The position numbers and the translations under genes are program-made. From a virus (Duplodnaviria; Caudoviricetes): a stretch of 57,698 nucleotides of DNA. Shown here one piece after another: positions 2,038 through 44,603 of the stretch. The stretch lies in IMG/VR virus record IMGVR_UViG_3300018063_000014, positions 1-57,698 of that record. One strand, 5' to 3'. Under the pieces are notes generated by a model that searched no databases, was not told where the DNA came from, and was given only the letters and a program-made list of their open reading frames with translations. Every line of letters begins with the position of its first letter. Within the stretch, counting starts at the first letter, position 1.

Positions 2038-4581
2038 TTATTTCCCCGCTCCGGTCAGCAACACGCTCGCACCGTCGGGACGAGTTACTACAGGCGGGGT
2101 TGTTCCAGCATTTAACTCAAACATTACGCCCTTGCCGGTGTCGTCGGTCCCGCCAACCACGTCGAAGGTTTTCGATGTAACGGTAACGGGACTCGCTCCA
2201 TTTATTGCATGATTCCAAACCAGGCCAACAGTGCCAGCGCCCGCATCGTGATCCGGCTCTCCAATTTCAATCCAGGTCAACGAGTCGCCTGTCAGCGTAG
2301 TAACTGAAGTCCAAGCACGGCGCTTCATCCCAACTACAAGGACAACGTTGTTCGCTGCAAGGGACAATCCGGTAATTGGTCCAATGTCGTTGCCAGTAAT
2401 ATTGAGGCTTGGCGTTGTAACCTCTGATATAGGCGTTGTCCCGCTTACACCGCGATAGGCTGCAAGCTGCGTGACGATCTCACCGTTGTTAGAGCCTATG
2501 GTCCAGGTCGGTGCTACGCTACATGACGGATAGAAGCAATACCATAACCCGAGCATCCGGCCAGTATCCTGAGTCGGGGTGAGTATCGCTGTCCAGCCCG
2601 CACTGATTGAAGCCGTGAAATTGGTATCACGACCCGCCAGCCCGGCAATAATAATGTCGTCCGTTGCGAGCCCTGCTGGCAATCCGGGCGCAGGGCTAGA
2701 ATTGTCTACAATGTTTCCCGCCGTTCCCGCCGCGACAAAAGTGATCGCGCCACCAGTGCCAACTTGAACAGAGCAAGTTTGGTCCGTGATGGACAACATT
2801 TTTTGTTTAAAACTGAATGCACTAGGCGCATTGTCCGTCAATGAGCCTGTTGCTGAATTGTAGGAGTCGAGACAAGCGTTTCCAGCGGCAAAAGCATTAG
2901 TCAGGTTGATTGTAAGAATGCCGCCGCCTTCTGTTACCGACGTTACAGGATTATCGACGCCAGCCTTTTTGACTGACCAACCCGTAGTAAAATTGCTAGC
3001 GAGTAGGCCAGGGTAGCGATTGTTCTCGGGAGTGCAAATCAGTTGAAGTGCGGAAACGATTCCGACGACGCAGTTATTTGCTGGAACTATCGACGCCTCG
3101 TAAGCCCCAATCGCACAAGCCGGAGCGTTGCAGCCTACACCGGAAACCGCTGTGCCGCTATTTTCAAACGTAGAAACCGTGTGAGTTAAGTCGCCCGTTG
3201 ATGGAGAAGTCAAAAGCGGATCGGTGTTTAGGGTGCTACCAAAAAGCCCCGAGACCGATTGGCAAGACGCAAGAGTCCGGTTAGTAGTATCACCCCAACG
3301 ACAAACATCAGTCGAACCCTGCTCTAAAAGATTGTTGTGGCTAATGACATGAGCGCCTTGAGTAATGAAAGTCGCGGTCCCCTCAAACGGGACAATGCCA
3401 CCGCTCTCAGTGTGACAAATATTGTTCTGAAAAACAGCGCGAGGTCCGCGAAAAGCATGAAAACATCGCTCTTTTACTCGAACAATGGTGTTGTTAAAAA
3501 ACTTTGGATCGTTGGGATCGCCGGTGCTTGGGGAGCCTAATCGAATGCCCTTTCGCCCAACGTCATAGACGAGATTATTTCTTACAGTCCAATTATGACA
3601 CTGACTCTCAATAAATATTCCGGCTGAATCTGAGTTGACTGTTGCAAAAGTTGGATAATCAATATTGTGAACACGGTTGTTCTCTATGATGCCGTTCTCG
3701 GCTCCGGTGTCACAATATAAACCAACAAATAGATCGTCATCTGTGCCAACAAGACTATCGTTGTCGCACGCTACGCCGTTGATACCGGAACCGTTTACTT
3801 CGTTATTGCGGATAATCGTTCCGCTGCTGTCCTGCGCATCTTTGATAACCTGTATGCCGCGTCTTCCGTCGCTGAAAAGCCCACACCGCATAGAGGAAAT
3901 GGTGTTATTTTCGATCAGTACGTTTAACCCTTCGGAAATCCGGATTATACTATGGGAATTGTTGGTAAAAGCGTTGCTAGAGATTGTCGTTGTAATCGTT
4001 TTGGTTGCCGTTCCGCCGCTTGTGACCCCATTAGTCCGAATTACATTGGTTCCACTAGTATTACTTCCGGTTCCCCCCCAATCGTCGAAACTGTTTCCGG
4101 TGATGGTAATGCCGATCATATTGGCCGTCACCGCCGAGAGTAGAATCGCGGCATCGCTCGTCTGTACTCCGGTTCCATCAAATAGAAGATTGCTTATCGT
4201 GACATGCGAGGCGTCGGTTATTTCAATCGAAGCCGTGCTGTTGGACGAAGCCCCGGAGTTGCGCAGTATTGGAGTCTCGCCGGTGAAGGGCCTAATGGTG
4301 ATGGGACTGCCAACCGATCCGCTTACCGTCAGATTTGAGACTGCGGTGTAAGTGCCGGCGCGGATGATGATTTCATCGTCGGCCCCAAGTGTGGCGTCGT
4401 CAAAAGCACCTTGGATGGTCTGATAAGCATCGCCATCGCTGCCGGTGCAGTTTCGGTTGGTGATAGAGTAATTCCCGGTTGTGCAGTTTGCTCCAAGGGT
4501 TCCGTCAACATGGATATCCTCGGCCCTAACTTGAAAGGCGAGCAAGAGAACAAAAAGAAGTGAGAGTAAGAGGCGGTTCAT
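2038..4581 (-). CDS. Signal-peptide parallel beta-helix (pectate-lyase-like) tailspike/depolymerase candidate
   Basis: MNRLLLSLLFVLLLAFQVRA; YQTIQGAFD...IIIRAGTY...GSVGSPITIRPF start motif; many I-x-N-N beta-helix rungs; C-terminal beta domains. Confidence 0.8.
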   Translation of the reverse strand: MNRLLLSLLFVLLLAFQVRAEDIHVDGTLGANCTTGNYSITNRNCTGSDGDAYQTIQGAFDDATLGADDEIIIRAGTYTAVSNLTVSGSVGSPITIRPFTGETPILRNSGASSNSTASIEITDASHVTISNLLFDGTGVQTSDAAILLSAVTANMIGITITGNSFDDWGGTGSNTSGTNVIRTNGVTSGGTATKTITTTISSNAFTNNSHSIIRISEGLNVLIENNTISSMRCGLFSDGRRGIQVIKDAQDSSGTIIRNNEVNGSGINGVACDNDSLVGTDDDLFVGLYCDTGAENGIIENNRVHNIDYPTFATVNSDSAGIFIESQCHNWTVRNNLVYDVGRKGIRLGSPSTGDPNDPKFFNNTIVRVKERCFHAFRGPRAVFQNNICHTESGGIVPFEGTATFITQGAHVISHNNLLEQGSTDVCRWGDTTNRTLASCQSVSGLFGSTLNTDPLLTSPSTGDLTHTVSTFENSGTAVSGVGCNAPACAIGAYEASIVPANNCVVGIVSALQLICTPENNRYPGLLASNFTTGWSVKKAGVDNPVTSVTEGGGILTINLTNAFAAGNACLDSYNSATGSLTDNAPSAFSFKQKMLSITDQTCSVQVGTGGAITFVAAGTAGNIVDNSSPAPGLPAGLATDDIIIAGLAGRDTNFTASISAGWTAILTPTQDTGRMLGLWYCFYPSCSVAPTWTIGSNNGEIVTQLAAYRGVSGTTPISEVTTPSLNITGNDIGPITGLSLAANNVVLVVGMKRRAWTSVTTLTGDSLTWIEIGEPDHDAGAGTVGLVWNHAINGASPVTVTSKTFDVVGGTDDTGKGVMFELNAGTTPPVVTRPDGASVLLTGAGK

Positions 4582-38295: not shown

Positions 38296-38672
38296 GTGTC
38301 CGCCTCGTAAGAAAACTCAATCCTTGTGATTTCCGTTTCTGGCGTGCAGCCCCTATGAGTCGCGCAGAAAAAACTCACGAATTCAGAGGGGAATCTATAG
38401 GCCGGATGATTTCCGAAGCCTTCCTTAGCGCACTCTTCAAAGCCATAATCCAAGTCGGCTTGCATCCGGTTTAACGGCTCCCGACGAACGCTCACGATGC
38501 GGATAGGATCGCGGAGCACGCTCTGTTTTTCGCCTTTCTTGATGCCCATGCACTTCTTGACCGGCAGCAATAGTTCGCCGGGTTGGAGACTCATCCAGCC
38601 GAGACGACGGGTTACGGTCTTTGTGCCGGCCATAACCTGATCAGTGGTCAAGGCAAAACTGATTCTACGCAT
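38292..38672 (-). CDS. ASCH-domain protein
   Basis: ISF...VMAGTKTVTRR...EGF...RIEF. Confidence 0.8.
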   Translation of the reverse strand: MRRISFALTTDQVMAGTKTVTRRLGWMSLQPGELLLPVKKCMGIKKGEKQSVLRDPIRIVSVRREPLNRMQADLDYGFEECAKEGFGNHPAYRFPSEFVSFFCATHRGCTPETEITRIEFSYEADT

Positions 38673-39988
38673 TAGCTAATCCTTTCGGAGAACCGCACAC
38701 AGTCGGCCTTGAAATGGAGATCCACGACGCCCACGGCGCCTTCCCTGTTCTTGCTTATAGCGACCTCAGCGACCGTGTTATCGATGACCCCGTGCCGGTT
38801 CTTCTCGCCGTAGTAAGCCGGGCGATAAAGCATCAAAACCACGTCGGCGTTCTGTTCGAGGGCGCCCGATTCTCGCAGGTCCGATAGCATAGGCCGGTGG
38901 TCTTTCCGCTTCTCAACATCTCGGTTTAGTTGGTTCAGGAAAACCATGCCGATGTTCAAAGACACGGCAAGGCGCTTCGCGTCGGCGCTCATGTAGGCCA
39001 CCTCGGATTGCCTTTCGCCTATTGATCGTGAGGGTTTGTCGTATGCGTCTACCAGGCCAAGGTAATCGACGAACGCCGCGCCAAGGTTCGGTTCCCGGAT
39101 CTTTAATTGCTGAATATTCGCCTTGATCTTCGGCCATCGGCTTTCCTTATCGGCGATGCGAAACATTTCAAGATCGGAGATAACATTCGCAGCATGCGCC
39201 ACCTGATTGACTTCTGGACCTTCAAGCGCGCCGGTTCTGATCAAACGAAGCGGAACCCCTGAATACATAGAGAGCATCCGGCACATGAGCGAATGGTTCG
39301 TACCCTCGACAGAGATATACGCTACGGATACGTTCGCGCGCGCCATGTTCAGACAGCAATTAGCGGCGAATGCAGACTTGCCCATGCTGCTCCTGCCGGC
39401 CACGATCCACAGTTCCCCCTTGCACATTCCCCCAATTATCCGGTCGATAGACGGGAAACCGATCTTCATAAAATCCGCCTCGTTGTGCGACTCAATTTTC
39501 TTGAGCGTTTGAATAATCTGCTCCCGCACAGTGATCAGCGTCTTTTCTTCTTGAAGTAGCTGAGTAAAGGTTTGCGAAAGATTGGCGTACTGCTCACCCA
39601 GGTCGGTGAGCGGGTTGGCTCCCATCTGCTCGATGGATTCCATGAGGGCCTTTTGAGCGGTACGGCGCTTCGAATAATCTTTGATTTTTCTAACGCTATA
39701 TTCCACCGAGCCCGGCATCGCCTTCTCGGCCAAGTCGGCGAAGAAATCAAACGGCATTTCTTTGTCTTCGCAATAGTCGTAAACTTGAACCACGCCAATC
39801 GGCATACTGAAGGCTTGCAACTCTAAAATCCTCTGGTAGACACGCCGATGTAGCGGACCGTACCAGTCCCCAAGCTCCAGGCCCGCGCTCACTATCGGGA
39901 TTATCGAGGGGTCAACTAGCATGGCACCAAGTAAGACCTTCTCAATTTCTATCGCCTGCGCGATGCGGATGTCGGGAGAGTCGGGCAA
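38672..39988 (-). CDS. dnaB: Replicative DNA helicase DnaB-like
   Basis: AGRSSMGKS, VDYLGLV, QLNRDVEKRKDHRPMLSDLRESGALEQNADVV, KNREG. Confidence 0.95.
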   Translation of the reverse strand: MPDSPDIRIAQAIEIEKVLLGAMLVDPSIIPIVSAGLELGDWYGPLHRRVYQRILELQAFSMPIGVVQVYDYCEDKEMPFDFFADLAEKAMPGSVEYSVRKIKDYSKRRTAQKALMESIEQMGANPLTDLGEQYANLSQTFTQLLQEEKTLITVREQIIQTLKKIESHNEADFMKIGFPSIDRIIGGMCKGELWIVAGRSSMGKSAFAANCCLNMARANVSVAYISVEGTNHSLMCRMLSMYSGVPLRLIRTGALEGPEVNQVAHAANVISDLEMFRIADKESRWPKIKANIQQLKIREPNLGAAFVDYLGLVDAYDKPSRSIGERQSEVAYMSADAKRLAVSLNIGMVFLNQLNRDVEKRKDHRPMLSDLRESGALEQNADVVLMLYRPAYYGEKNRHGVIDNTVAEVAISKNREGAVGVVDLHFKADCVRFSERIS

Positions 39989-39991
39989 GGC

Positions 39992-40741
39992 TCAATCTTC
40001 CCCCAACCGTCGCGCCCAAACTCCGGTTCGCTCCGGCGCCTTGACCGTGCCATCCGGGTTGAATTCGTCGCCGTTGCCGTTCTGCGGCTTGTGAACCCAC
40101 TCGACCTTGATCGTGGTCCAGTTGCGGTCGATGGCATCCTCTATGACCTTCTTCGGGTCGTAGCCGATACCCCTTAGTATTCGAAGGCGCTCGAAAAGGC
40201 GCTCTGCCACTTCCTTAGTCGTCGGCGCTCTCTTGCGCTTTCTATGTGCTAGAAACTCTTCCCAAGAGTCTTTAGGGATGAAATCAGGAAGCGTTAGCGT
40301 CTCTTCTTCCTTTGATTCTCTTCTACTGATTCTCTTAAGAGGAGTCCGCATATCCGCTGACTCCTGACTCTGCGTATGTGGCGACTCATGAGTCTGCATA
40401 TATGCGGAGTCCTGAATCGTCATCACCTCGGAAATCCACTGGTGCATCAAGAATCGGTAGCGGTTGGCCTTGCCGAACCCTAGTTGCTCGACTTCGACGA
40501 GAGCGTGCTTCGACTCCAATTCCTTGATGTACCTATCAAATTGGCTTTCAGAGATTCCCAACTCGGCGGCTATAGTCTCACGCTTTGGCCATGCTACGCC
40601 GTGGTCGCCCGCGTACTGCGCGAGCCGCGCGTAGGCCAGCTTGGCCCCCTGGGAGACCTCGGTCCTACTTAACAGCCAGTTCGGAACGAACGAACCGACC
40701 CATGCCTTATAGGGATTGATAAAACGACCCTCCAGTTTCAT
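39992..40741 (-). CDS. Replication initiator (N-terminal winged HTH)
   Basis: VSQGAKLAYARL...AWPKRETIAAELGISE...NRY; C-terminal WEEFLAHRKRK...NWT; adjacent to dnaB. Confidence 0.85.
   Translation of the reverse strand: MKLEGRFINPYKAWVGSFVPNWLLSRTEVSQGAKLAYARLAQYAGDHGVAWPKRETIAAELGISESQFDRYIKELESKHALVEVEQLGFGKANRYRFLMHQWISEVMTIQDSAYMQTHESPHTQSQESADMRTPLKRISRRESKEEETLTLPDFIPKDSWEEFLAHRKRKRAPTTKEVAERLFERLRILRGIGYDPKKVIEDAIDRNWTTIKVEWVHKPQNGNGDEFNPDGTVKAPERTGVWARRLGED
40342..40418. repeat. Iteron-like 24-bp-period repeats in the initiator gene
   Basis: GA(G/C)TC-N12-GA(C/G)TC units starting 40342, 40366, 40390. Confidence 0.65.
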
Positions 40742-40882
40742 GCGACCCTTCCCGAACCCACAGCAAGGCCGGCACGCGGGATAGGCGCGCATCGCCGCTC
40801 GGGGGGAACGGTTGCCGACCTTGCTCTAAATTCGAAAAAACGGAGGATTTCAATGGACACTATCCTTGCCCACGATGCAGGC

Positions 40883-40911
40883 ACTATAACCCGAATCGCG
40901 GGCTGTGTAAA
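40883..40911 (-). promoter_or_regulatory. Sigma70-type promoter for the initiator-dnaB operon
   Basis: TTTACA-17 nt-TATAGT; the -35 overlaps a heptamer array. Confidence 0.55.
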
Positions 40912-40928
40912 GCGGCAAACGTAAAACG

Positions 40929-41177
40929 TTAAACAGACTCGTAGGTAGCGTTGAAAACGTCTGGTTTACACGGGTAAAACTCGCCCATGACGCCTCTGAT
41001 AATCCAGTCTCCTTTGGAGGCTGTCATGGTGCCTTCGAGTGTTTTGATTGAGATGCTATCGCCGGTGAAGTCTTCTTCAAATTCCGTGGCACCCTTGGCG
41101 AATCTCATAATCTCGCTCATGTTGTGGCCGGTATATTGAACAGCCTCAACCACCACTGGTTTTTTCCTAAATTTCAT
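40929..41177 (-). CDS. PGDYG-like conserved phage protein
   Basis: [12 protein letters not shown]...TLEG...[23 protein letters not shown]. Confidence 0.85.
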
Positions 41178-41388
41178 ATCGGCTTCTCCTTTCCAATTCC
41201 GCTTCTAGCATCTGAATCACCTTGTCCCGCGCCTCGACGACACGCTGAAGTCGCCGGATGCCCTTGTTGGCGTTGGCGATCTCGATACGGGCGCGGAGGT
41301 AAAGGGATTCGAAAAGAAGGGCGCGGTGAGCTGCGTCGAAACTCAACGCGGGTATCTTATCTTCGTTAAGCTTTTTCGCTGGTTCCAT
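41167..41388 (-). CDS. Coiled-coil hypothetical protein
   Basis: 73 aa, GGGAG RBS. Confidence 0.5.
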
Positions 41389-41569
41389 CGGCGTCTCCCT
41401 TCAACCGTCGTTCCTCCGCCATCTGTTCGACTAGGATCTTCAACTCTTCCCTCAGCACCGCCTCGACCTTCTCCGGCTTCTGGCCGTACCACAGCGCGCA
41501 CTCCGAAATGGTGGCACCAACAATGAAGCGGTCAACGATGAGGGCGCGGATCGATTTGGTTAGGTTCAT
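41366..41569 (-). CDS. Small HTH-like protein
   Basis: RFIVGATISECALWYG...VEAVLR; AGAGG RBS. Confidence 0.55.
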   Translation of the reverse strand: MNLTKSIRALIVDRFIVGATISECALWYGQKPEKVEAVLREELKILVEQMAEERRLKGDADGTSEKA

Positions 41570-42914
41570 TTAATCCTCTTTCAATTTCCGCGATGCCTTT
41601 GACAATCTCATAGGCGACTTGCGGGACAATCGCGTTGCCGAGTCCTTTTAACCTACTGACTCGATCCGGTACTCCTGTCGCAACTCTAGGCAAGCCATCT
41701 TCCCAGCCGTAGGAAGGCCAAGCCGCTTCGCCGTCGAATGCAGGAAGTTGTGGCACCATTTGCATAGCGTCTGAATATTCATCGAGTCGTTGTTTGCCTT
41801 GTTTTGATCGACGTGATGAGCGTTGAGCTGTCGCCGTTCGCCGCAAGCCTCGCAGGAAGTCTTCAGATACTTCCTTGCCCGCCACGAGTAGCCGTGCTTC
41901 GTCAGAACCGTTCGAGTATTCGCGCACGAAAGAGAACAAAATCTCCGCTTGTTGAATGCGGTCAAATCCTCTAGCTGCCTGCCATAACGCTTGCGAAACA
42001 TTGGCGTTCCACAATTCTCGCAGGGTTTTGATGCTTCTAATATTTTCCTCATAGCTCATTCCTTTTCCGTAATGTCGGTCCAACCAACTGGGTAGCCCAT
42101 CAGAGCTTCGACCCACGTCGGGTTCAGGGAGCCACCATGACCCTGATTGATTAGAACTTGCTCGTGCAAGTCGATTTGCTTCCCTTTCGTTTTCCTGTTC
42201 ACCGCTGCTTGATAGCCTGTCCCGCCGTGATGGCCTACGTGAGTCGATGGCGTCGGCCACATCTTCACCGCTTGCGGTAAATCTATCGCTTGTTCCGCAT
42301 AAGCCCTGCCTTGCGGGCCTTTCCAATCGCGGCTTTGTATTGTTGGCCACAATCCAAACTCTGTCTCGTCGGTGTTTGGCATCGACGGCGCAAGCTGGAA
42401 TAATAATCGATTGGACGGCGTACCCTTCACCTTCCAGGTCAGAAAGCACTCGGTCGAGTTCCATCGTGACGATTCCAGCAACGTTCTCACCAAGCACCCA
42501 AGCGGGCCGGGCTTCCGATATAACCCTGAGCATTTCCGGCCAGAGATAACGGTCATCTTCCTTGCCTCTACGCTTCCCGGCTTGGGAAAATGGCTGGCAA
42601 GGAAACCCTCCGGTAAGTAGGGTTGCGCCTCGGTAGGGGGTTCCGTCGAAGGTGAAGATGTCGGAATAGAATCGAGAGCAACAAAGTCTTCTAGCCTGCT
42701 CTTGTGCCCGTTCTTTATATTCTCTGGATTGCGTAGCACGCCCGTCGCACCGTGACTCTTTGTCATTGTCGGATATAGCCCCGAAGTTCTGTTTGATGAC
42801 TTCCTGCGCATAAGGCTCAATCTCTACAAATGCCACTGTCTTGAATCCCGCCCACTGTGCGGCTAAAGCGAAGCCGCCGATGCCGCTGAATAGGTCGATG
42901 TGGGTTAGCATCAA
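41532..42914 (-). CDS. C5 DNA cytosine methyltransferase, alpha-type subunit (motifs I-VIII and X)
   Basis: DLFSGIGG, GGFPCQPFS, ENV, HRRDRVWIV, RLKGLGNAIVPQVA; motif IX absent from this frame. Confidence 0.92.
   Translation of the reverse strand: MMLTHIDLFSGIGGFALAAQWAGFKTVAFVEIEPYAQEVIKQNFGAISDNDKESRCDGRATQSREYKERAQEQARRLCCSRFYSDIFTFDGTPYRGATLLTGGFPCQPFSQAGKRRGKEDDRYLWPEMLRVISEARPAWVLGENVAGIVTMELDRVLSDLEGEGYAVQSIIIPACAVDAKHRRDRVWIVANNTKPRLERPARQGLCGTSDRFTASGEDVADAIDSRRPSRRDRLSSSGEQENEREANRLARASSNQSGSWWLPEPDVGRSSDGLPSWLDRHYGKGMSYEENIRSIKTLRELWNANVSQALWQAARGFDRIQQAEILFSFVREYSNGSDEARLLVAGKEVSEDFLRGLRRTATAQRSSRRSKQGKQRLDEYSDAMQMVPQLPAFDGEAAWPSYGWEDGLPRVATGVPDRVSRLKGLGNAIVPQVAYEIVKGIAEIERGLNEPNQIDPRPHR
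41648..42052 (-). CDS. HNH endonuclease nested in the methyltransferase gene (alternative frame)
   Basis: CENC..FCSLSC, CEACG...LNAHHVDQNKANNDSMNIQTLCKWCH; AAGGA RBS. Confidence 0.85.
   Translation of the reverse strand: MRKILEASKPCENCGTPMFRKRYGRQLEDLTAFNKRRFCSLSCANTRTVLTKHGYSWRARKYLKTSCEACGERRQLNAHHVDQNKANNDSMNIQTLCKWCHNFLHSTAKRLGLPTAGKMACLELRQEYRIESVG
42056..42820 (-). CDS. Methyltransferase beta subunit overprinted in the alternative frame (start uncertain)
   Basis: WPT..SRDWK and WPTP repeats; C-terminal LNPTWVEALMGYPVGWT (motif IX). Confidence 0.85.
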   Translation of the reverse strand: MSLMRRKSSNRTSGLYPTMTKSHGATGVLRNPENIKNGHKSRLEDFVALDSIPTSSPSTEPPTEAQPYLPEGFLASHFPKPGSVEARKMTVISGRKCSGLYRKPGPLGCLVRTLLESSRWNSTECFLTWKVKGTPSNRLLFQLAPSMPNTDETEFGLWPTIQSRDWKGPQGRAYAEQAIDLPQAVKMWPTPSTHVGHHGGTGYQAAVNRKTKGKQIDLHEQVLINQGHGGSLNPTWVEALMGYPVGWTDITEKE

Positions 42915-43300
42915 TCCTCGTCTTCCCCGTCGTCGTCATCCTTCATGGTGACCTTGCACTTCTCTTTGCCCTTCACGATCTTGCCGGTAAGTGGAGGGTC
43001 GAAGCTGTCGTCCTTGTACGACTCGATTCCATGCGCGTGCATAAGCTGGAGCGCCAAGTCCTGCGCGGCGGTTTCCTGCTTCGTGAAGTCCATCCGCATC
43101 TTGCGAATCTCCTTCAACTTTTCCAGGGCATCGCTGACCTCAGGGATACGGACGAATTGATCCTCCATCCCCGGCAGTGTCGGTGTCTTGCCGGGTTGTT
43201 TAGCATTCGGTTCGTCCGGTTCCACCGTTCCTACTGCCTCAATCCCTTCCCCCTCATGCACCGCCTCTATGAACTGCTTCATCGTCGTGACTGTTTCCAT
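42911..43300 (-). CDS. Hypothetical acidic protein
   Basis: 129 aa, ATGA overlap with the methyltransferase. Confidence 0.65.
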   Translation of the reverse strand: METVTTMKQFIEAVHEGEGIEAVGTVEPDEPNAKQPGKTPTLPGMEDQFVRIPEVSDALEKLKEIRKMRMDFTKQETAAQDLALQLMHAHGIESYKDDSFDPPLTGKIVKGKEKCKVTMKDDDDGEDED

Positions 43301-43889
43301 TTTGCTTTTCCCTTCTTTTGCTCCATCTCTTTTCGTTTGCGCGCTTCAGTTGTAGCTGGGTTAGATTCCGTTTCTCGGTAAAGTACCAGGCGTCGTACCG
43401 CGACTTGCACTCGTTGCAATCTCTCACCGTCATCCATTCGCGGCACTCCGCATACTTGTGGCTGTAGGTCTGACCTGGAATGTCGGGGATGTCGGTTCTC
43501 AATGGCTTACGGTGCGTATACCGAAGCTGTCTGGTCTTATGCGACCGAACCCTCTTTGCCTTTGCCGGACGGCTCTCTATGCCCTTGCGAACATAGTCAG
43601 GGTCAAAGCCAAGGCTCTCGCAAATGTTCACGAAACAGAAAGGCCATAGGCTGTCGCCTTCTTCGAGCCATGCCCTTGCCGCTTCGTGCCGGCCGATATC
43701 GTCAGAGGCGAAACTATCGACAGCCTCTTCGAGCACGGCGACCATGAGTTTCTTTTCGGGGTCTAGCTCGCGGGTCGCCTTGTTCATCTTGTCGATGTTG
43801 AGAAAGCCGTCTGCCGAAGTGGGCATGCAGATTCGCGGCGGCTCGATGATCTCACCGGATTCCCAAGCTGTTTTTTCGGGATGGCGCAT
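43254..43889 (-). CDS. Hypothetical protein
   Basis: LMVAVLEEAV...FCFVNICESLGFDPDYVR recurring phage motif. Confidence 0.65.
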   Translation of the reverse strand: MRHPEKTAWESGEIIEPPRICMPTSADGFLNIDKMNKATRELDPEKKLMVAVLEEAVDSFASDDIGRHEAARAWLEEGDSLWPFCFVNICESLGFDPDYVRKGIESRPAKAKRVRSHKTRQLRYTHRKPLRTDIPDIPGQTYSHKYAECREWMTVRDCNECKSRYDAWYFTEKRNLTQLQLKRANEKRWSKRREKQNGNSHDDEAVHRGGA

Positions 43890-44042: not shown

Positions 44043-44603
44043 TCATTGCCTGGCACCCTTCTCCCCCCACACCTCGACGCTTTTCTTCGCCAACCACTTA
44101 CGCAAATAGGCGTTGCAATGTCCACGGTTTTGCCGCTTCCAAGCCGCAATCCGACGCTTCTTACACTTGACGCACCTACGTTTCCCGTGCTCAATCAGAA
44201 GATTGTCTCCGGTTAACGGATGACCATGCACGCAGTTACGGCGTCTCGCGTTCTGCGCCGGGAGGCTTTCGCCCCTCAAGATATTCTGACGACAGGTAGC
44301 GGGTTCTAAGTGATCCGGCCTTACGCAACGGCGGTGTGGGCATTTGTCTCCGTGTAGGCATCCCGTTCCGTTGTGACAGGTATGATCAAGTTTCAAGCCG
44401 TTAGGAATCGGACCATTGTGGAGTTGATAAGAGAATCTATGAGCCGGAACGTTGTGACCGCGCCTTGGCCCATTTGGGGTTGTTTCCCAAAGCAGGCCAT
44501 AACCGTGATCAATAGCGCCGGTCCAAAGCCAACAGGTTTCGGTCTTCTGGACCCTTTGCCAGAAACGGGTTTCTATCGAAGGTTTATTCGTCCAACGCCC
44601 CAT
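44043..44603 (-). mobile_element. HNH homing endonuclease
   Basis: RFWQRV...CWLWTG...AHRFSY...LDHTC...CVRPDHLE; CVHGH C-terminal domain. Confidence 0.9.

What the first reader, a model, noticed from the sequence alone, without database searches (positions are those of the whole stretch)
41648..42052. Complete HNH endonuclease gene overprinted inside an intact methyltransferase ORF
Seen: the 460-aa alpha frame stays open across the whole HNH gene, gaining about 130 extra residues between EPDVGR and the motif-X block RVATGVPDRVSRLKGLGN. The HNH ORF is in the same alternative frame as the beta subunit, separated only by TGA-GCT-ATG, with its own AAGGA RBS. No intein or intron signatures are evident. 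About 1.2 kb thus encodes three proteins in two frames. Inference: a homing nuclease that inserts without splicing by exploiting the dispensable alpha linker, or a compact nested restriction-modification-like unit. TGA readthrough would give a beta-HNH fusion.
Basis: partly seen in the sequence, partly recalled or inferred. Interest (0 to 1): 0.85.

Follow-up and report, generated by a model that had tools for sequence, protein, structure and literature searches.

The report
HNH gene hidden inside two-frame methylase
A phage cytosine-methyltransferase gene that already encodes its two subunits in two overlapping reading frames also carries a selfish HNH nuclease gene, and the main subunit appears to be translated straight through that gene in another frame; each trick is already published, but this combination is not.

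Summary
The alpha ORF (41532-42914, 460 aa) stays open across a complete HNH gene (41648-42052). That gene starts one codon after the stop of the nested beta ORF (42056-42820).

This is not chance. In 32 of 32 distinct homologous HNH genes the methyltransferase frame has no stop. Synonymous shuffles predict 2.7-8.3 stops for the 31 intact genes, and 0 of 1000 shuffles of the window's gene stayed open. The HNH frame is under purifying selection (dN/dS about 0.15). The read-through frame is only kept open (naive dN/dS about 1).

The HNH always lies between motif IX and motif X. It is flanked by a roughly 45-nt diverged duplication of its target. It is absent from most close relatives of the methyltransferase.

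The best reading is a splice-free homing-endonuclease cassette, tolerated because the host reads it as a floppy linker. In relatives that linker is attached to alpha (as here) or to beta.

The alpha/beta overprinting is the M.EcoHK31I arrangement. Hidden out-of-frame HNH genes in phage methylases were published in 2025 (PMC11855218). This scan has already noted the same combination on other genomes. Verdict: a new variant of a known kind. No expression or cleavage data exist.

The parts
41532..42914 (-). The alpha subunit gene of a C5 cytosine methyltransferase. It is 460 aa from TTG 42914; the likelier start is ATG 42911. It carries motifs I-VIII at the N-terminus and motif X at the C-terminus, with about 220 low-confidence residues in between.
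   Evidence: ORF list. PF00145 at E=7.3e-40 over residues 65-198. TIGR00675 dcm at E=1.4e-28, 100.5 bits, just under its 100.65 cut-off. Invariant columns in the 40-sequence alignment A2. AlphaFold2: residues 1-200 and 417-448 are confident; 202-268 and 361-414 have pLDDT below 50.
42056..42820 (-). The beta subunit gene, nested in alpha in the +1 frame. It holds the target-recognition region and the motif IX-like end (...LMGYPVGWTD). The conserved part starts near 42616. The true start is unresolved: candidates are 42820, 42811, 42766 and 42739, and none has a strong Shine-Dalgarno sequence.
   Evidence: ORF list. tblastn matched residues 68-252 in 79 phage records. phrog_1008 at E=1.6e-31. 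The same nested ORF occurs in phages C72C1, Leyra and R23.9. The complex model with alpha scored 0.87 against a best control of 0.00.
42066..42125 (-). The upstream copy of the duplicated target (the motif IX / pre-motif X overlap). It keeps the beta reading; the alpha reading has decayed to SSDGLPSWLDR.
   Evidence: A 60-nt local alignment to the single copy in the HNH-less alleles L042 and L043.
42060..42064 (-). AAGGA ribosome-binding site of the HNH gene, 7 nt before its ATG.
   Evidence: Sequence read directly.
41648..42052 (-). The HNH endonuclease gene (134 aa). It has an N-terminal zinc ribbon and a CxxC...HH...N...N...CxxCH...H core. It is in beta's frame and starts one codon after beta's TGA.
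   Evidence: phrog_1271 at E=7e-12. Invariant Cys, His and Asn columns in 31 sequences. dN/dS median 0.145. AlphaFold2 mean pLDDT 85.6. At least 169 protein clusters at E<=1e-5.
41688..42107 (-). The read-through linker of alpha (residues 270-409, 140 aa). It is the alpha-frame translation of beta's end and of the HNH gene. It is kept stop-free but not conserved as protein.
   Evidence: extent. (stop avoidance). (naive dN/dS 1.05). (its first codon position is the least conserved). (pLDDT 40-69).
41630..41688 (-). The downstream copy of the duplicated target. It keeps the alpha reading (RVATGVPDRVSR, then LKGLGN). The beta reading has decayed and forms the HNH C-terminal tail and stop.
   Evidence: A 59-nt alignment to L042. 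In L004, L019 and L030 the HNH tail still reads as the old beta tail.
41616..41651 (-). Motif X core of alpha (LKGLGNAIVPQV).
   Evidence: G425, N426, V429 and P430 are invariant in A2. The helix 417-448 has block-mean pLDDT 73-94.

Best explanation
The locus is a two-polypeptide C5 cytosine methyltransferase of the M.EcoHK31I type. Alpha carries motifs I-VIII and X. Beta, nested in another frame, carries the target-recognition part and motif IX.

This gene has been invaded by a free-standing-type HNH homing-endonuclease cassette. The cassette sits exactly at the motif IX / motif X junction. That junction is a short, nucleotide-conserved island because both frames code there.

The insertion duplicated about 45 nt of the target. 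The upstream copy now serves only beta and the downstream copy serves only alpha.

Nothing is spliced out. Ribosomes translating alpha read the HNH gene in the +2 frame as a 140-residue, largely unstructured tether that ends in the motif X helix. That helix still docks onto the catalytic domain. The HNH protein itself is made from its own AAGGA ribosome-binding site and ATG, one codon after beta's stop, and is probably coupled to beta translation.

Selection on the host gene has purged from the HNH gene every codon pair that would create a stop in the host frame.

Shown here: the anatomy, the stop avoidance, purifying selection on the HNH, the constant insertion site, and the patchy distribution.

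Inferred, not shown: that the HNH cleaves HNH-less alleles and spreads by homing, that all three proteins are made, and that the enzyme is active.
For: Anatomy.

The nested alpha/beta arrangement without an HNH:
- It occurs in phages C72C1, Leyra (both ORFs annotated as methyltransferase) and R23.9.
- It occurs in 66 of the 80 closest viral-contig relatives of the window's alpha N-domain.
- It occurs in 74 of the 80 closest relatives of L011.

Constant site: all 38 viral contigs found with the HNH protein carry it between motif IX and the motif X piece, and motif X is always in frame HNH+2. The same holds in three MAG contigs (L125-L127) and in the cultured Komagataeibacter phage phiKX1.

Stop avoidance:
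- There are 0 stops in the +2 frame in 32 of 32 distinct HNH genes.
- The +1 frame has 2-10 stops.
- For the 31 intact genes, synonymous shuffles give a mean of 2.7-8.3 stops and P(open) of 0-0.041.

Continuity: in 37 of 37 complete HNH-bearing loci the +2 ORF is continuous with alpha (16) or beta (21), and never stands alone.

Selection:
- HNH-frame dN/dS has a median of 0.145, while the naive value for the +2 frame is 1.05 (119 pairs).
- HNH codon position 3, which is position 1 of the host frame, is the least conserved.

Mobility:
- HNH presence needs at least 8 changes on the alpha-N tree.
- The window's starred clade (SH-aLRT 97) holds two HNH-bearing alleles (window, L004) and two HNH-less ones (L042, L043).
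- Only 5 of 80 and 2 of 80 closest relatives carry the HNH.
- The HNH tree needs at least 4 switches between the two deep methyltransferase clades.
- The window and L004 are unrelated phages (flanks about 40% identical) that share the cassette at 82-93% nucleotide identity, while the recognition region is 43-58% identical.
- The L007 copy has a premature stop at codon 20, yet the host frame is intact.

Target: the insertion site lies in a conserved 3' island (0.77-0.81 majority-base fraction) next to a variable region (0.25-0.41) in 57 HNH-less alleles.

Duplication.

Structure:
- The alpha linker has low pLDDT and the motif X helix is confident.
- The alpha N-domain plus the motif X piece, modelled against beta, scored 0.87 against a best control of 0.00. 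That mark was reached by 58 of 80 solved complexes and 2 of 110 mismatched pairs. The runs agree in at least 96% of contacts, and the partner's pLDDT is at least 66.
- This pass probably reflects likeness to solved single-chain C5 methyltransferases.

Precedents: PMC2836561 (passages read) for M.EcoHK31I. PMC11855218 (abstract and sections 3, 18 and 19 read) for hidden out-of-frame HNH genes in stop-free methylase insertions.
Against: There is no direct evidence that alpha, beta or the HNH is translated, that the enzyme methylates, or that the HNH cuts anything.

The disagreement between the HNH and methyltransferase trees rests on branches with moderate support (85-94), none of them starred.

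Sampling is biased. HNH-bearing loci were fetched with the HNH as query, and HNH-less loci with alpha as query. Only the best 80 of 171 relatives and of at least 589 relatives were examined.

The HNH is under strong purifying selection across deep divergence. That would also fit a domesticated, useful nuclease.

The Foldseek PDB search gave only weak HNH matches (E>=0.1), and Pfam HNH is below its cut-off.

The naive dN/dS of an overlapped frame is confounded by the other frame, so some weak constraint on the linker cannot be excluded.

Beta has no convincing ribosome-binding site.

The L007 stop could be a sequencing error.
Confidence: 0.75

Rival explanations
1. The HNH is not selfish but a working partner of the methyltransferase. 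It could be a compact nested restriction-modification-like or exclusion unit, in which the phage methylates its own DNA and the HNH attacks unmethylated competitor or host DNA. It could also be a domesticated DNA-binding or nicking module.
For: The HNH is under strong purifying selection (dN/dS 0.145). It is tightly linked with a methyltransferase in every locus (38 of 38). Translation is probably coupled to beta, because the ATG lies one codon after beta's stop. PMC11855218 section 4.2 raises the idea in general terms (read).
Against: Most close relatives of the methyltransferase work without it. The HNH-less count is 73 of the 78 uncut loci (80 examined), and 77 of the 79 loci where motif X was found (80 examined).

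HNH presence is scattered on the methyltransferase tree (at least 8 changes).

The HNH is always at one site inside the gene, not beside it. One copy carries a premature stop while its host gene stays intact.

The frame relation to beta is not conserved (16 against 21 loci).
Confidence: 0.1
2. The HNH-containing segment is removed before or during expression, so the open host frame is not actually translated. Removal could be by an unrecognised self-splicing intron, by translational bypassing, or by DNA-level excision between the flanking repeats.
For: The cassette is flanked by diverged direct repeats. HNH genes are common in group I introns (general knowledge). No RNA data are available.
Against: An excised segment would have no reason to keep the host frame stop-free. 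Yet 32 of 32 distinct copies do so against an expectation of 2.7-8.3 stops. In 37 of 37 complete loci the frame is continuous with an upstream subunit.

No Rfam intron family matched at E<=10.

The repeats are too diverged for simple recombination; the two copies in the window share only a 25-column local match.

Contigs from two runs (X1, X3) carry both junctions, and no joined form was seen. These are contigs only, so this is weak evidence.
Confidence: 0.04
3. Alpha is in effect truncated, and motif X is supplied by a separate product started inside or after the HNH gene. One possible start is the Met codons of ...DAMQMVPQ..., about 41775. On this view the long fusion ORF is only apparent.
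For: In-frame Met codons exist in the read-through segment. A few HNH-less relatives have motif X on a separate ORF: 3 of 80 and 3 of 80. Split C5 methyltransferase fragments can reassemble (listing and abstract of PMC3404938 seen).
Against: Stop avoidance extends over the whole HNH gene, not only its 3' end. Continuity with alpha or beta holds in 37 of 37 loci. A free frame relation would put some copies in the third frame.
Confidence: 0.05
4. One polypeptide is made by programmed ribosomal frameshifting: alpha N-domain, then the beta frame, then back to the alpha frame for motif X. This would reconstitute a normal single-chain methyltransferase, with the HNH region bypassed or read through.
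For: The order of motifs along the DNA (I-VIII, recognition region, IX, X) is that of a single-chain enzyme.
Against: It needs two frameshifts in opposite directions, and no conserved slippery site was looked for or seen. For M.EcoHK31I two separate polypeptides are reported to be required and sufficient (PMC2836561, passages read). The overlap of the two conserved coding regions is about 300 nt (42616-42321), which a frameshift model does not need.
Confidence: 0.04

Closest known systems
M.EcoHK31I, the heterodimeric C5 methyltransferase of E. coli (as described in PMC2836561, which cites Lee, Kam & Shaw; passages read)
   Same: Beta is encoded entirely within alpha in another reading frame. 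[quoted passage not shown] Both chains are needed in the published enzyme.
   Different: There is no HNH in the description read for M.EcoHK31I. Here beta also appears to hold the recognition region, which that paper places in alpha. Sequence relatedness to M.EcoHK31I itself was not tested because its sequence was not in hand. The present family is phage-borne and large: the nested arrangement occurred in 66 of 80 and 74 of 80 sampled relatives.
ShiLan domain and the Pacc40 gp60 insertion: hidden out-of-frame HNH endonucleases in stop-free insertions of actinobacteriophage DNA methylases (Arsenault, Gosselin & Gogarten 2025, PMC11855218; earlier PMC9957025)
   Same: An HNH gene lies in another frame inside a phage methylase gene. 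The host frame has no stop. No intron or intein signature is found. Distribution is disjunct, suggesting homing. The host-frame product is predicted to be a poorly ordered loop.
   Different: - The HNH family differs. It is 123-153 aa against 195 aa, and tblastn of the window's HNH against 50,697 phage records found no Mycobacterium phage at E<=1e-3. I did not verify that phage ShiLan is in that collection.
- The frame relation differs. [quoted passage not shown]
- Here there is a clear ribosome-binding site, whereas the paper reports none.
- The host gene here is itself dual-coding.
- The insertion duplicated its target.
- The read-through can be attached to either subunit.
- A term search of that paper found no 'EcoHK31I', 'cytosine', 'motif IX' or 'duplication'.
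Free-standing homing endonucleases that split or sit between phage genes (recalled from general knowledge; no paper read here)
   Same: The HNH has its own translation signals, needs no splicing, and targets a conserved stretch of a phage DNA-metabolism gene.
   Different: Here the host ORF is neither split nor bypassed. It is read through the endonuclease gene in another frame.
M.AquI-type split C5 methyltransferase, with alpha carrying motifs I-VIII and beta carrying IX-X (recalled; not checked in a paper here)
   Same: The 21 relatives where beta reads through the HNH into motif X have this division of motifs.
   Different: The window itself has motif X on alpha. In those relatives the two genes overlap, and an HNH gene lies between motifs IX and X.

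Membership tests
Two-polypeptide (M.EcoHK31I-type) C5 methyltransferase | Alpha carries C5 methyltransferase motifs I-VIII and motif X | tested here: met
   PF00145 at E=7.3e-40. The columns F8/G10/G12/G13, G101-C105, E142/N143/V144, R182/R184 and G425/N426/V429/P430 are invariant in 40 sequences. The motif numbering is recalled, not taken from a tool.
Two-polypeptide (M.EcoHK31I-type) C5 methyltransferase | Beta is encoded inside alpha in another reading frame | tested here: met
   The arrangement is conserved in relatives.
Two-polypeptide (M.EcoHK31I-type) C5 methyltransferase | Beta supplies motif IX and binds alpha | tested here: inconclusive
   A motif IX-like ...LNPxWVExLMGYPxGWT is conserved in 42 betas. 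The complex model scored 0.87 against a best control of 0.00. That pass may reflect likeness to solved single-chain enzymes, and no binding assay exists.
Two-polypeptide (M.EcoHK31I-type) C5 methyltransferase | Both polypeptides are required for methylation | not testable with these tools
   This needs expression and a methylation assay.
Two-polypeptide (M.EcoHK31I-type) C5 methyltransferase | Sequence homology to M.EcoHK31I itself | not tested
Hidden out-of-frame HNH insertion element (ShiLan-type, PMC11855218) | The insertion is absent from close relatives of the host gene and always at the same site | tested here: met
Hidden out-of-frame HNH insertion element (ShiLan-type, PMC11855218) | The host frame has no stop across the insertion | tested here: met
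   32 of 32 distinct copies are stop-free. For the 31 intact genes P(open) is 0-0.041 per copy under synonymous shuffles.
Hidden out-of-frame HNH insertion element (ShiLan-type, PMC11855218) | Another frame encodes an HNH endonuclease | tested here: met
   phrog_1271 at E=7e-12. The metal-binding and catalytic residues are invariant.
Hidden out-of-frame HNH insertion element (ShiLan-type, PMC11855218) | No intron or intein signature | tested here: met
   There was no Rfam intron hit. The alpha-frame product matches only methyltransferase families in Pfam.
Hidden out-of-frame HNH insertion element (ShiLan-type, PMC11855218) | Homology of the HNH to the ShiLan or Pacc40 HNH | tested here: not met
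   No Mycobacterium phage was among the 19 records matched at E<=1e-3. Whether ShiLan is in the collection was not verified. So this element works like the published ones but is not shown to be the same family.
HNH (beta-beta-alpha-metal) nuclease | A profile match and conserved His, Asn and Cys residues | tested here: met
   Eleven PHROG HNH families matched, the best at 7e-12. Pfam PF01844 scored 18.0 bits, below its 21.4 cut-off. C67, C70, H79, H80, N92, C97, C100, H101 and H105 are invariant.
HNH (beta-beta-alpha-metal) nuclease | The fold matches solved HNH nucleases | tested here: inconclusive
   The model has pLDDT 85.6. Foldseek PDB hits to HNH proteins (T5 SciA, Cas5-HNH, Cap5, McrA) have only E=0.18-0.5 and TM-scores below 0.4.
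HNH (beta-beta-alpha-metal) nuclease | Nuclease activity and site specificity | not testable with these tools
   This needs a cleavage assay.
Group I intron-encoded homing endonuclease | A catalytic intron RNA surrounds the ORF | tested here: not met
   No Rfam intron match at E<=10 in 40800-43400. The host frame is kept open.
Intein | The endonuclease is in frame with the host and flanked by splicing (Hint) blocks | tested here: not met
   The HNH is in a different frame from alpha. There is no Hint or intein Pfam match in alpha.

The most novel reading that the evidence does not exclude
This is a distinct, widespread family of splice-free nested homing endonucleases that specialises on dual-coding DNA, namely the motif IX/X overlap of two-frame methyltransferases.

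Its insertion does more than ride along. It duplicates the overlap so that each copy is freed to serve one frame.

It can also rewire the enzyme's subunit composition. In the L011 subfamily the HNH-less alleles carry motif X on alpha (74 of 80). The HNH-bearing alleles carry it on beta: 2 of the 2 HNH-bearing loci in that sample, and 21 loci overall. That converts an M.EcoHK31I-type split into an M.AquI-type split.

The host, in turn, dictates the synonymous codon choice of its parasite.
Probability: 0.55. Interest if true: 0.65.

Novelty: new variant of a known kind. Interest (0 to 1): 0.5.

Why it matters
Three proteins are packed into 1.38 kb in two frames, and in relatives in three frames.

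**Annotation.** Standard gene callers report only the long ORF. The methyltransferase is therefore annotated with about 220 residues of non-domain sequence, and both beta and the HNH are missed. In the cultured phage phiKX1 the pieces are annotated as hypothetical proteins.

**Mobile-element biology.** The locus shows a third way, besides introns and inteins, for a homing endonuclease to live inside an essential-looking ORF without breaking it. It also shows measurable host selection on the parasite's synonymous sites.

**Enzyme design.** The motif X helix tolerates a 140-residue unconstrained tether. It can be delivered by either subunit. This is relevant to split-methyltransferase tools such as those built from M.EcoHK31I (PMC2836561).

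The principle was published in 2025 and the same combination has already been noted in this scan. The value here lies in the quantified evidence and in the new details (target duplication, the alpha-or-beta switch), not in a new kind of system.

Tried and rejected
- **Rfam search for an intron**: nothing relevant.
- **Foldseek PDB search with the HNH model**: only weak matches (E>=0.1). It is not used as support.
- **Pfam on beta** and **NCBIfam on beta**: no family.
- **RNA evidence:** The look-up of sequencing runs listed no RNA holder.
- **Read laying on runs X1, X3, X4 and X5**:
  - Only contigs identical to the window, plus short pieces of relatives, were laid.
  - There were no joints and no HNH-less form.
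  - X1 may be the source sample.
  - Parts without cover are not interpreted.
- **Genome-contig scan with the HNH alignment**: only 5 MAG contigs, which is too few to name hosts.
- **A formal overlapping-gene dN/dS** (OLGenie-type) was considered but not implemented. I used naive Nei-Gojobori values per frame and say so.
- **Search for the read-through peptide** in the 5.8-billion-protein collection was considered and dropped as not decisive.
- **Beta-HNH fusion by TGA readthrough** was rejected as a general mechanism because the frame relation is not conserved.
- **Chance** was rejected.
I had listed L032 with the alpha-read-through type. One search shows that it is the beta-read-through type.
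- **Supplementary files** of PMC11855218, PMC9957025 and PMC2836561 were not opened. They and the GitHub material of PMC11855218 may list further hidden-HNH loci, possibly including this family.
- **Rows dropped before counts:**
  - L060-L062 and L074 are the same contigs as L038-L040 and L037.
  - L010 has its alpha N-domain split over two frames.
  - L008 and L028 are cut upstream.
  - L007 was left out of the HNH alignment, the HNH tree and the dN/dS analysis because of its premature stop.
Full report
**What is there.** The window is a whole IMG/VR virus record of 57,698 bases, estimated 97% complete. The finding lies in its replication module. That module holds a DnaB-like helicase at 38672-39988 and an O-like initiator at 39992-40792.

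On the minus strand there are three ORFs:
- Alpha is 42914..41532 (460 aa).
- Beta is 42820..42056 (254 aa from TTG), one base out of frame with alpha.
- An HNH ORF is 42052..41648 (134 aa), in beta's frame.

The junction reads TGA-GCT-ATG, with AAGGA 7 nt before the ATG. Alpha has no stop across the HNH gene. The third frame has 29 stops over the same 1,383 nt. The extra segment is 140 residues rather than about 130.

**What the parts are.**
- Alpha matches the C5 methyltransferase family PF00145 (E=7.3e-40) over residues 65-198. It ends in a conserved motif X.
- Beta has no Pfam family, but it matches phrog_1008 'DNA methyltransferase' (E=1.6e-31). It ends in a motif IX-like sequence that is conserved in 42 relatives.
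- The HNH ORF matches eleven PHROG HNH families, the best at 7e-12.
  - It has invariant zinc-binding cysteines and catalytic His and Asn residues in 31 sequences.
  - It gives a confident AlphaFold2 model (pLDDT 85.6).
  - Its Pfam score is below the cut-off.
  - Foldseek against the PDB found only weak HNH matches.

**The two-frame methyltransferase is a family trait.** Three cultured phages have the same alpha with a nested beta and no HNH: C72C1, Paenibacillus phage Leyra and Lacticaseibacillus phage R23.9. In Leyra both ORFs are annotated as cytosine methyltransferases.

Among the 80 closest viral-contig relatives of the window's alpha N-domain:
- 66 have that arrangement without an HNH.
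- 4 have motif X on beta.
- 3 have motif X on a separate ORF.
- 5 carry the HNH.
- 2 are cut.

None is a single-frame enzyme. [quoted passage not shown]

A structure-prediction test of the alpha N-domain plus the motif X piece against beta scored 0.87, against a best control of 0.00. That mark was reached by 58 of 80 solved complexes and 2 of 110 mismatched pairs. The runs agreed in at least 96% of contacts, and the partner's pLDDT was at least 66. Because single-chain C5 methyltransferases are solved, this pass shows likeness, not binding.

**The HNH is an insertion at one fixed site.** A search of viral contigs with the HNH protein gave 38 loci at 56-92% identity. In all 38 the HNH lies between the motif IX end of beta and the motif X piece, and motif X is always in frame HNH+2. 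The same holds in three MAG contigs (L125-L127) and in the cultured Komagataeibacter phage phiKX1, where the pieces are annotated as hypothetical proteins.

Comparison with the HNH-less alleles L042 and L043 shows what happened. These are the closest relatives of the window's alpha N-domain; one search gives 83% identity over 156 columns for L042. In them, beta's end (...LNPTWVEWLMGYPTGWTALKD...) and alpha's pre-motif X stretch (EPDVGRVAHGIPNRVDRLKGLGN) are encoded by the same nucleotides.

In the window about 45 nt of that overlap occur twice, once on each side of the HNH. The upstream copy keeps the beta reading, and its alpha reading has decayed. The downstream copy keeps the alpha reading. 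In L004, L019 and L030 the HNH's C-terminal tail still reads as the old beta tail.

So the cassette went into beta's frame with a target duplication, and the duplication uncoupled the two readings.

**The open host frame is selected.** In 32 of 32 distinct HNH genes the +2 frame has no stop, while the +1 frame has 2-10 stops. Shuffling synonymous codons within each of the 31 intact genes gives on average 2.7-8.3 stops in the +2 frame. The frame stays open in 0 to 4.1% of shuffles per gene, and in 0 of 1000 shuffles for the window.

The HNH frame has a median dN/dS of 0.145. The read-through frame has a naive value of 1.05 over 119 pairs. The host frame's first codon position is the least conserved. 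The HNH is therefore a real, constrained protein. The host reading of it is kept only stop-free.

AlphaFold2 on alpha, with a 40-sequence alignment, gives these confidences:
- High confidence for residues 1-200.
- pLDDT below 50 for residues 202-268 and 361-414.
- Weak helices in residues 287-361.
- A confident motif X helix (residues 417-448, block-mean pLDDT 73-94).

That fits a tether that lets motif X return to the catalytic domain.

**Two ways of wiring.** In 16 complete HNH-bearing loci, the window among them, the read-through frame is continuous with alpha. In 21 loci alpha stops just after the EPDVGR-like stretch, and it is beta that reads through the HNH gene into motif X. In those 21 loci all three frames are used. 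In none of the 37 does the motif X ORF stand alone.

In the methyltransferase subfamily of those 21 loci, 74 of the 80 closest relatives of L011 lack the HNH and carry motif X on alpha. The 2 that carry the HNH have motif X on beta. Insertion thus goes with a transfer of motif X from one subunit to the other.

It is broken in some, but the other subunit then takes over the read-through.

**Is the HNH mobile?** Evidence for mobility:
- HNH presence needs at least 8 changes on the alpha-N tree.
- The window's own well-supported clade (SH-aLRT 97) holds two HNH-bearing and two HNH-less alleles.
- L038-L040 (HNH-bearing) are sister to the HNH-less L067 at support 98.
- The HNH tree needs at least 4 switches between the two deep methyltransferase clades, though on branches of only moderate support.
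- The window and L004 are otherwise unrelated phages, with flanks about 40% identical. They share the cassette at 82-93% nucleotide identity, while the recognition region between them is 43-58% identical.
- The insertion site lies in a conserved nucleotide island (0.77-0.81) next to a variable region (0.25-0.41) in 57 HNH-less alleles. That is the kind of target homing endonucleases favour.
- One copy (L007) has a premature stop at codon 20 while its host frame is intact.

Evidence against, or limits on, mobility:
- Sampling is biased by the way the loci were fetched.
- Strong purifying selection on the HNH would also fit a useful nuclease.
- No cleavage, expression or RNA data exist. No RNA run holds the stretch.
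- Contigs from other samples showed only the HNH-bearing form.

**Comparison with what is known.** The alpha/beta overprinting is the M.EcoHK31I arrangement. The idea of an out-of-frame HNH hidden in a stop-free insertion of a phage methylase was published in 2025 for mycobacteriophages: the ShiLan domain and Pacc40 gp60 (PMC11855218; abstract and sections 3, 18 and 19 read). I was led to that paper by earlier notes of this scan and then read it myself.

The present element differs in these ways:
- The HNH is smaller and not detectably related. There was no Mycobacterium phage among 19 tblastn matches in 50,697 phage records.
- The frame relation is different.
- It has a clear ribosome-binding site.
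- Its host is itself dual-coding.
- There is a target duplication.
- The read-through goes through either subunit.

That paper contains none of the terms EcoHK31I, cytosine, motif IX or duplication. A full-text search for papers holding at least 3 of the 4 terms 'HNH endonuclease', 'cytosine methyltransferase', 'overlapping' and 'alternative reading frame' listed 7 papers, none on this subject by title. The supplements and GitHub data of these papers were not seen.

The scan has noted the same three-gene combination on at least six other genomes. A Staphylococcus phage, CUB-EPI_14, has a 34%-identical hidden HNH at a different site in a single-chain C5 methyltransferase. The strategy is therefore widespread.

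**Verdict.** The locus is a new variant of two known things combined. Its mechanism rests on strong comparative evidence but on no experiment. Confidence in the splice-free homing-cassette reading is about 0.75.

Noticed in passing
window 44043-44603 (-): A second, free-standing HNH endonuclease gene (186 aa) of a different family (phrog_826, E=5.6e-39) lies about 1.1 kb upstream of the methyltransferase on the same strand.
   Followed up: partly
window 42616-42321 (-): About 300 nt code in two frames at once: alpha motifs IV-VIII and the conserved N-part of beta. This is the only part of the locus that blastn finds in distant phages, at 70-73% nucleotide identity in Paenibacillus and Lacticaseibacillus phages. 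It is the most conserved stretch among HNH-less alleles (0.75-0.92).
   Followed up: partly
L050 and L082 (alpha ORF ends at 3133, motif X ORF starts 3137, same frame); L115, L132, L153, L204: A few HNH-less relatives have motif X on a separate ORF. In L050 and L082 a single in-frame stop interrupts alpha. It was not resolved whether these are decayed genes, sequencing errors or three-piece enzymes.
   Followed up: no
L058, L072, L117, L121: Four HNH-less relatives carry motif X on beta instead of alpha. They are scattered on the tree (4 changes). The switch of motif X between subunits therefore also happens without an HNH.
   Followed up: no
L124 (Staphylococcus phage CUB-EPI_14) 1759-2250 inside CDS 612-2417: A single-chain 601-aa C5 methyltransferase holds a hidden HNH ORF (34.5% identical to the window's) in another frame, upstream of motif IX. 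The host frame is open again. The record annotates only the methyltransferase.
   Followed up: partly
L123 (Komagataeibacter phage phiKX1) 633-2289: A cultured phage has the same three-gene architecture: alpha in frame 3 at 633-2279, beta in frame 1 at 640-1767, and the HNH in frame 1 from 1771. The record annotates the pieces as separate hypothetical proteins. It is a possible laboratory model.
   Followed up: partly
L010 2115-2626: The alpha N-domain of this HNH-bearing locus is split over two frames (tblastn pieces in frames 3 and 2). This could be a frameshift or an assembly error. The locus was left out of the tree.
   Followed up: no
window 42722-42620 (-), alpha residues about 45-95: Compared with relatives, alpha has an extra charged segment between the motif I region and motif IV. 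AlphaFold2 pLDDT is 58-75 there.
   Followed up: no
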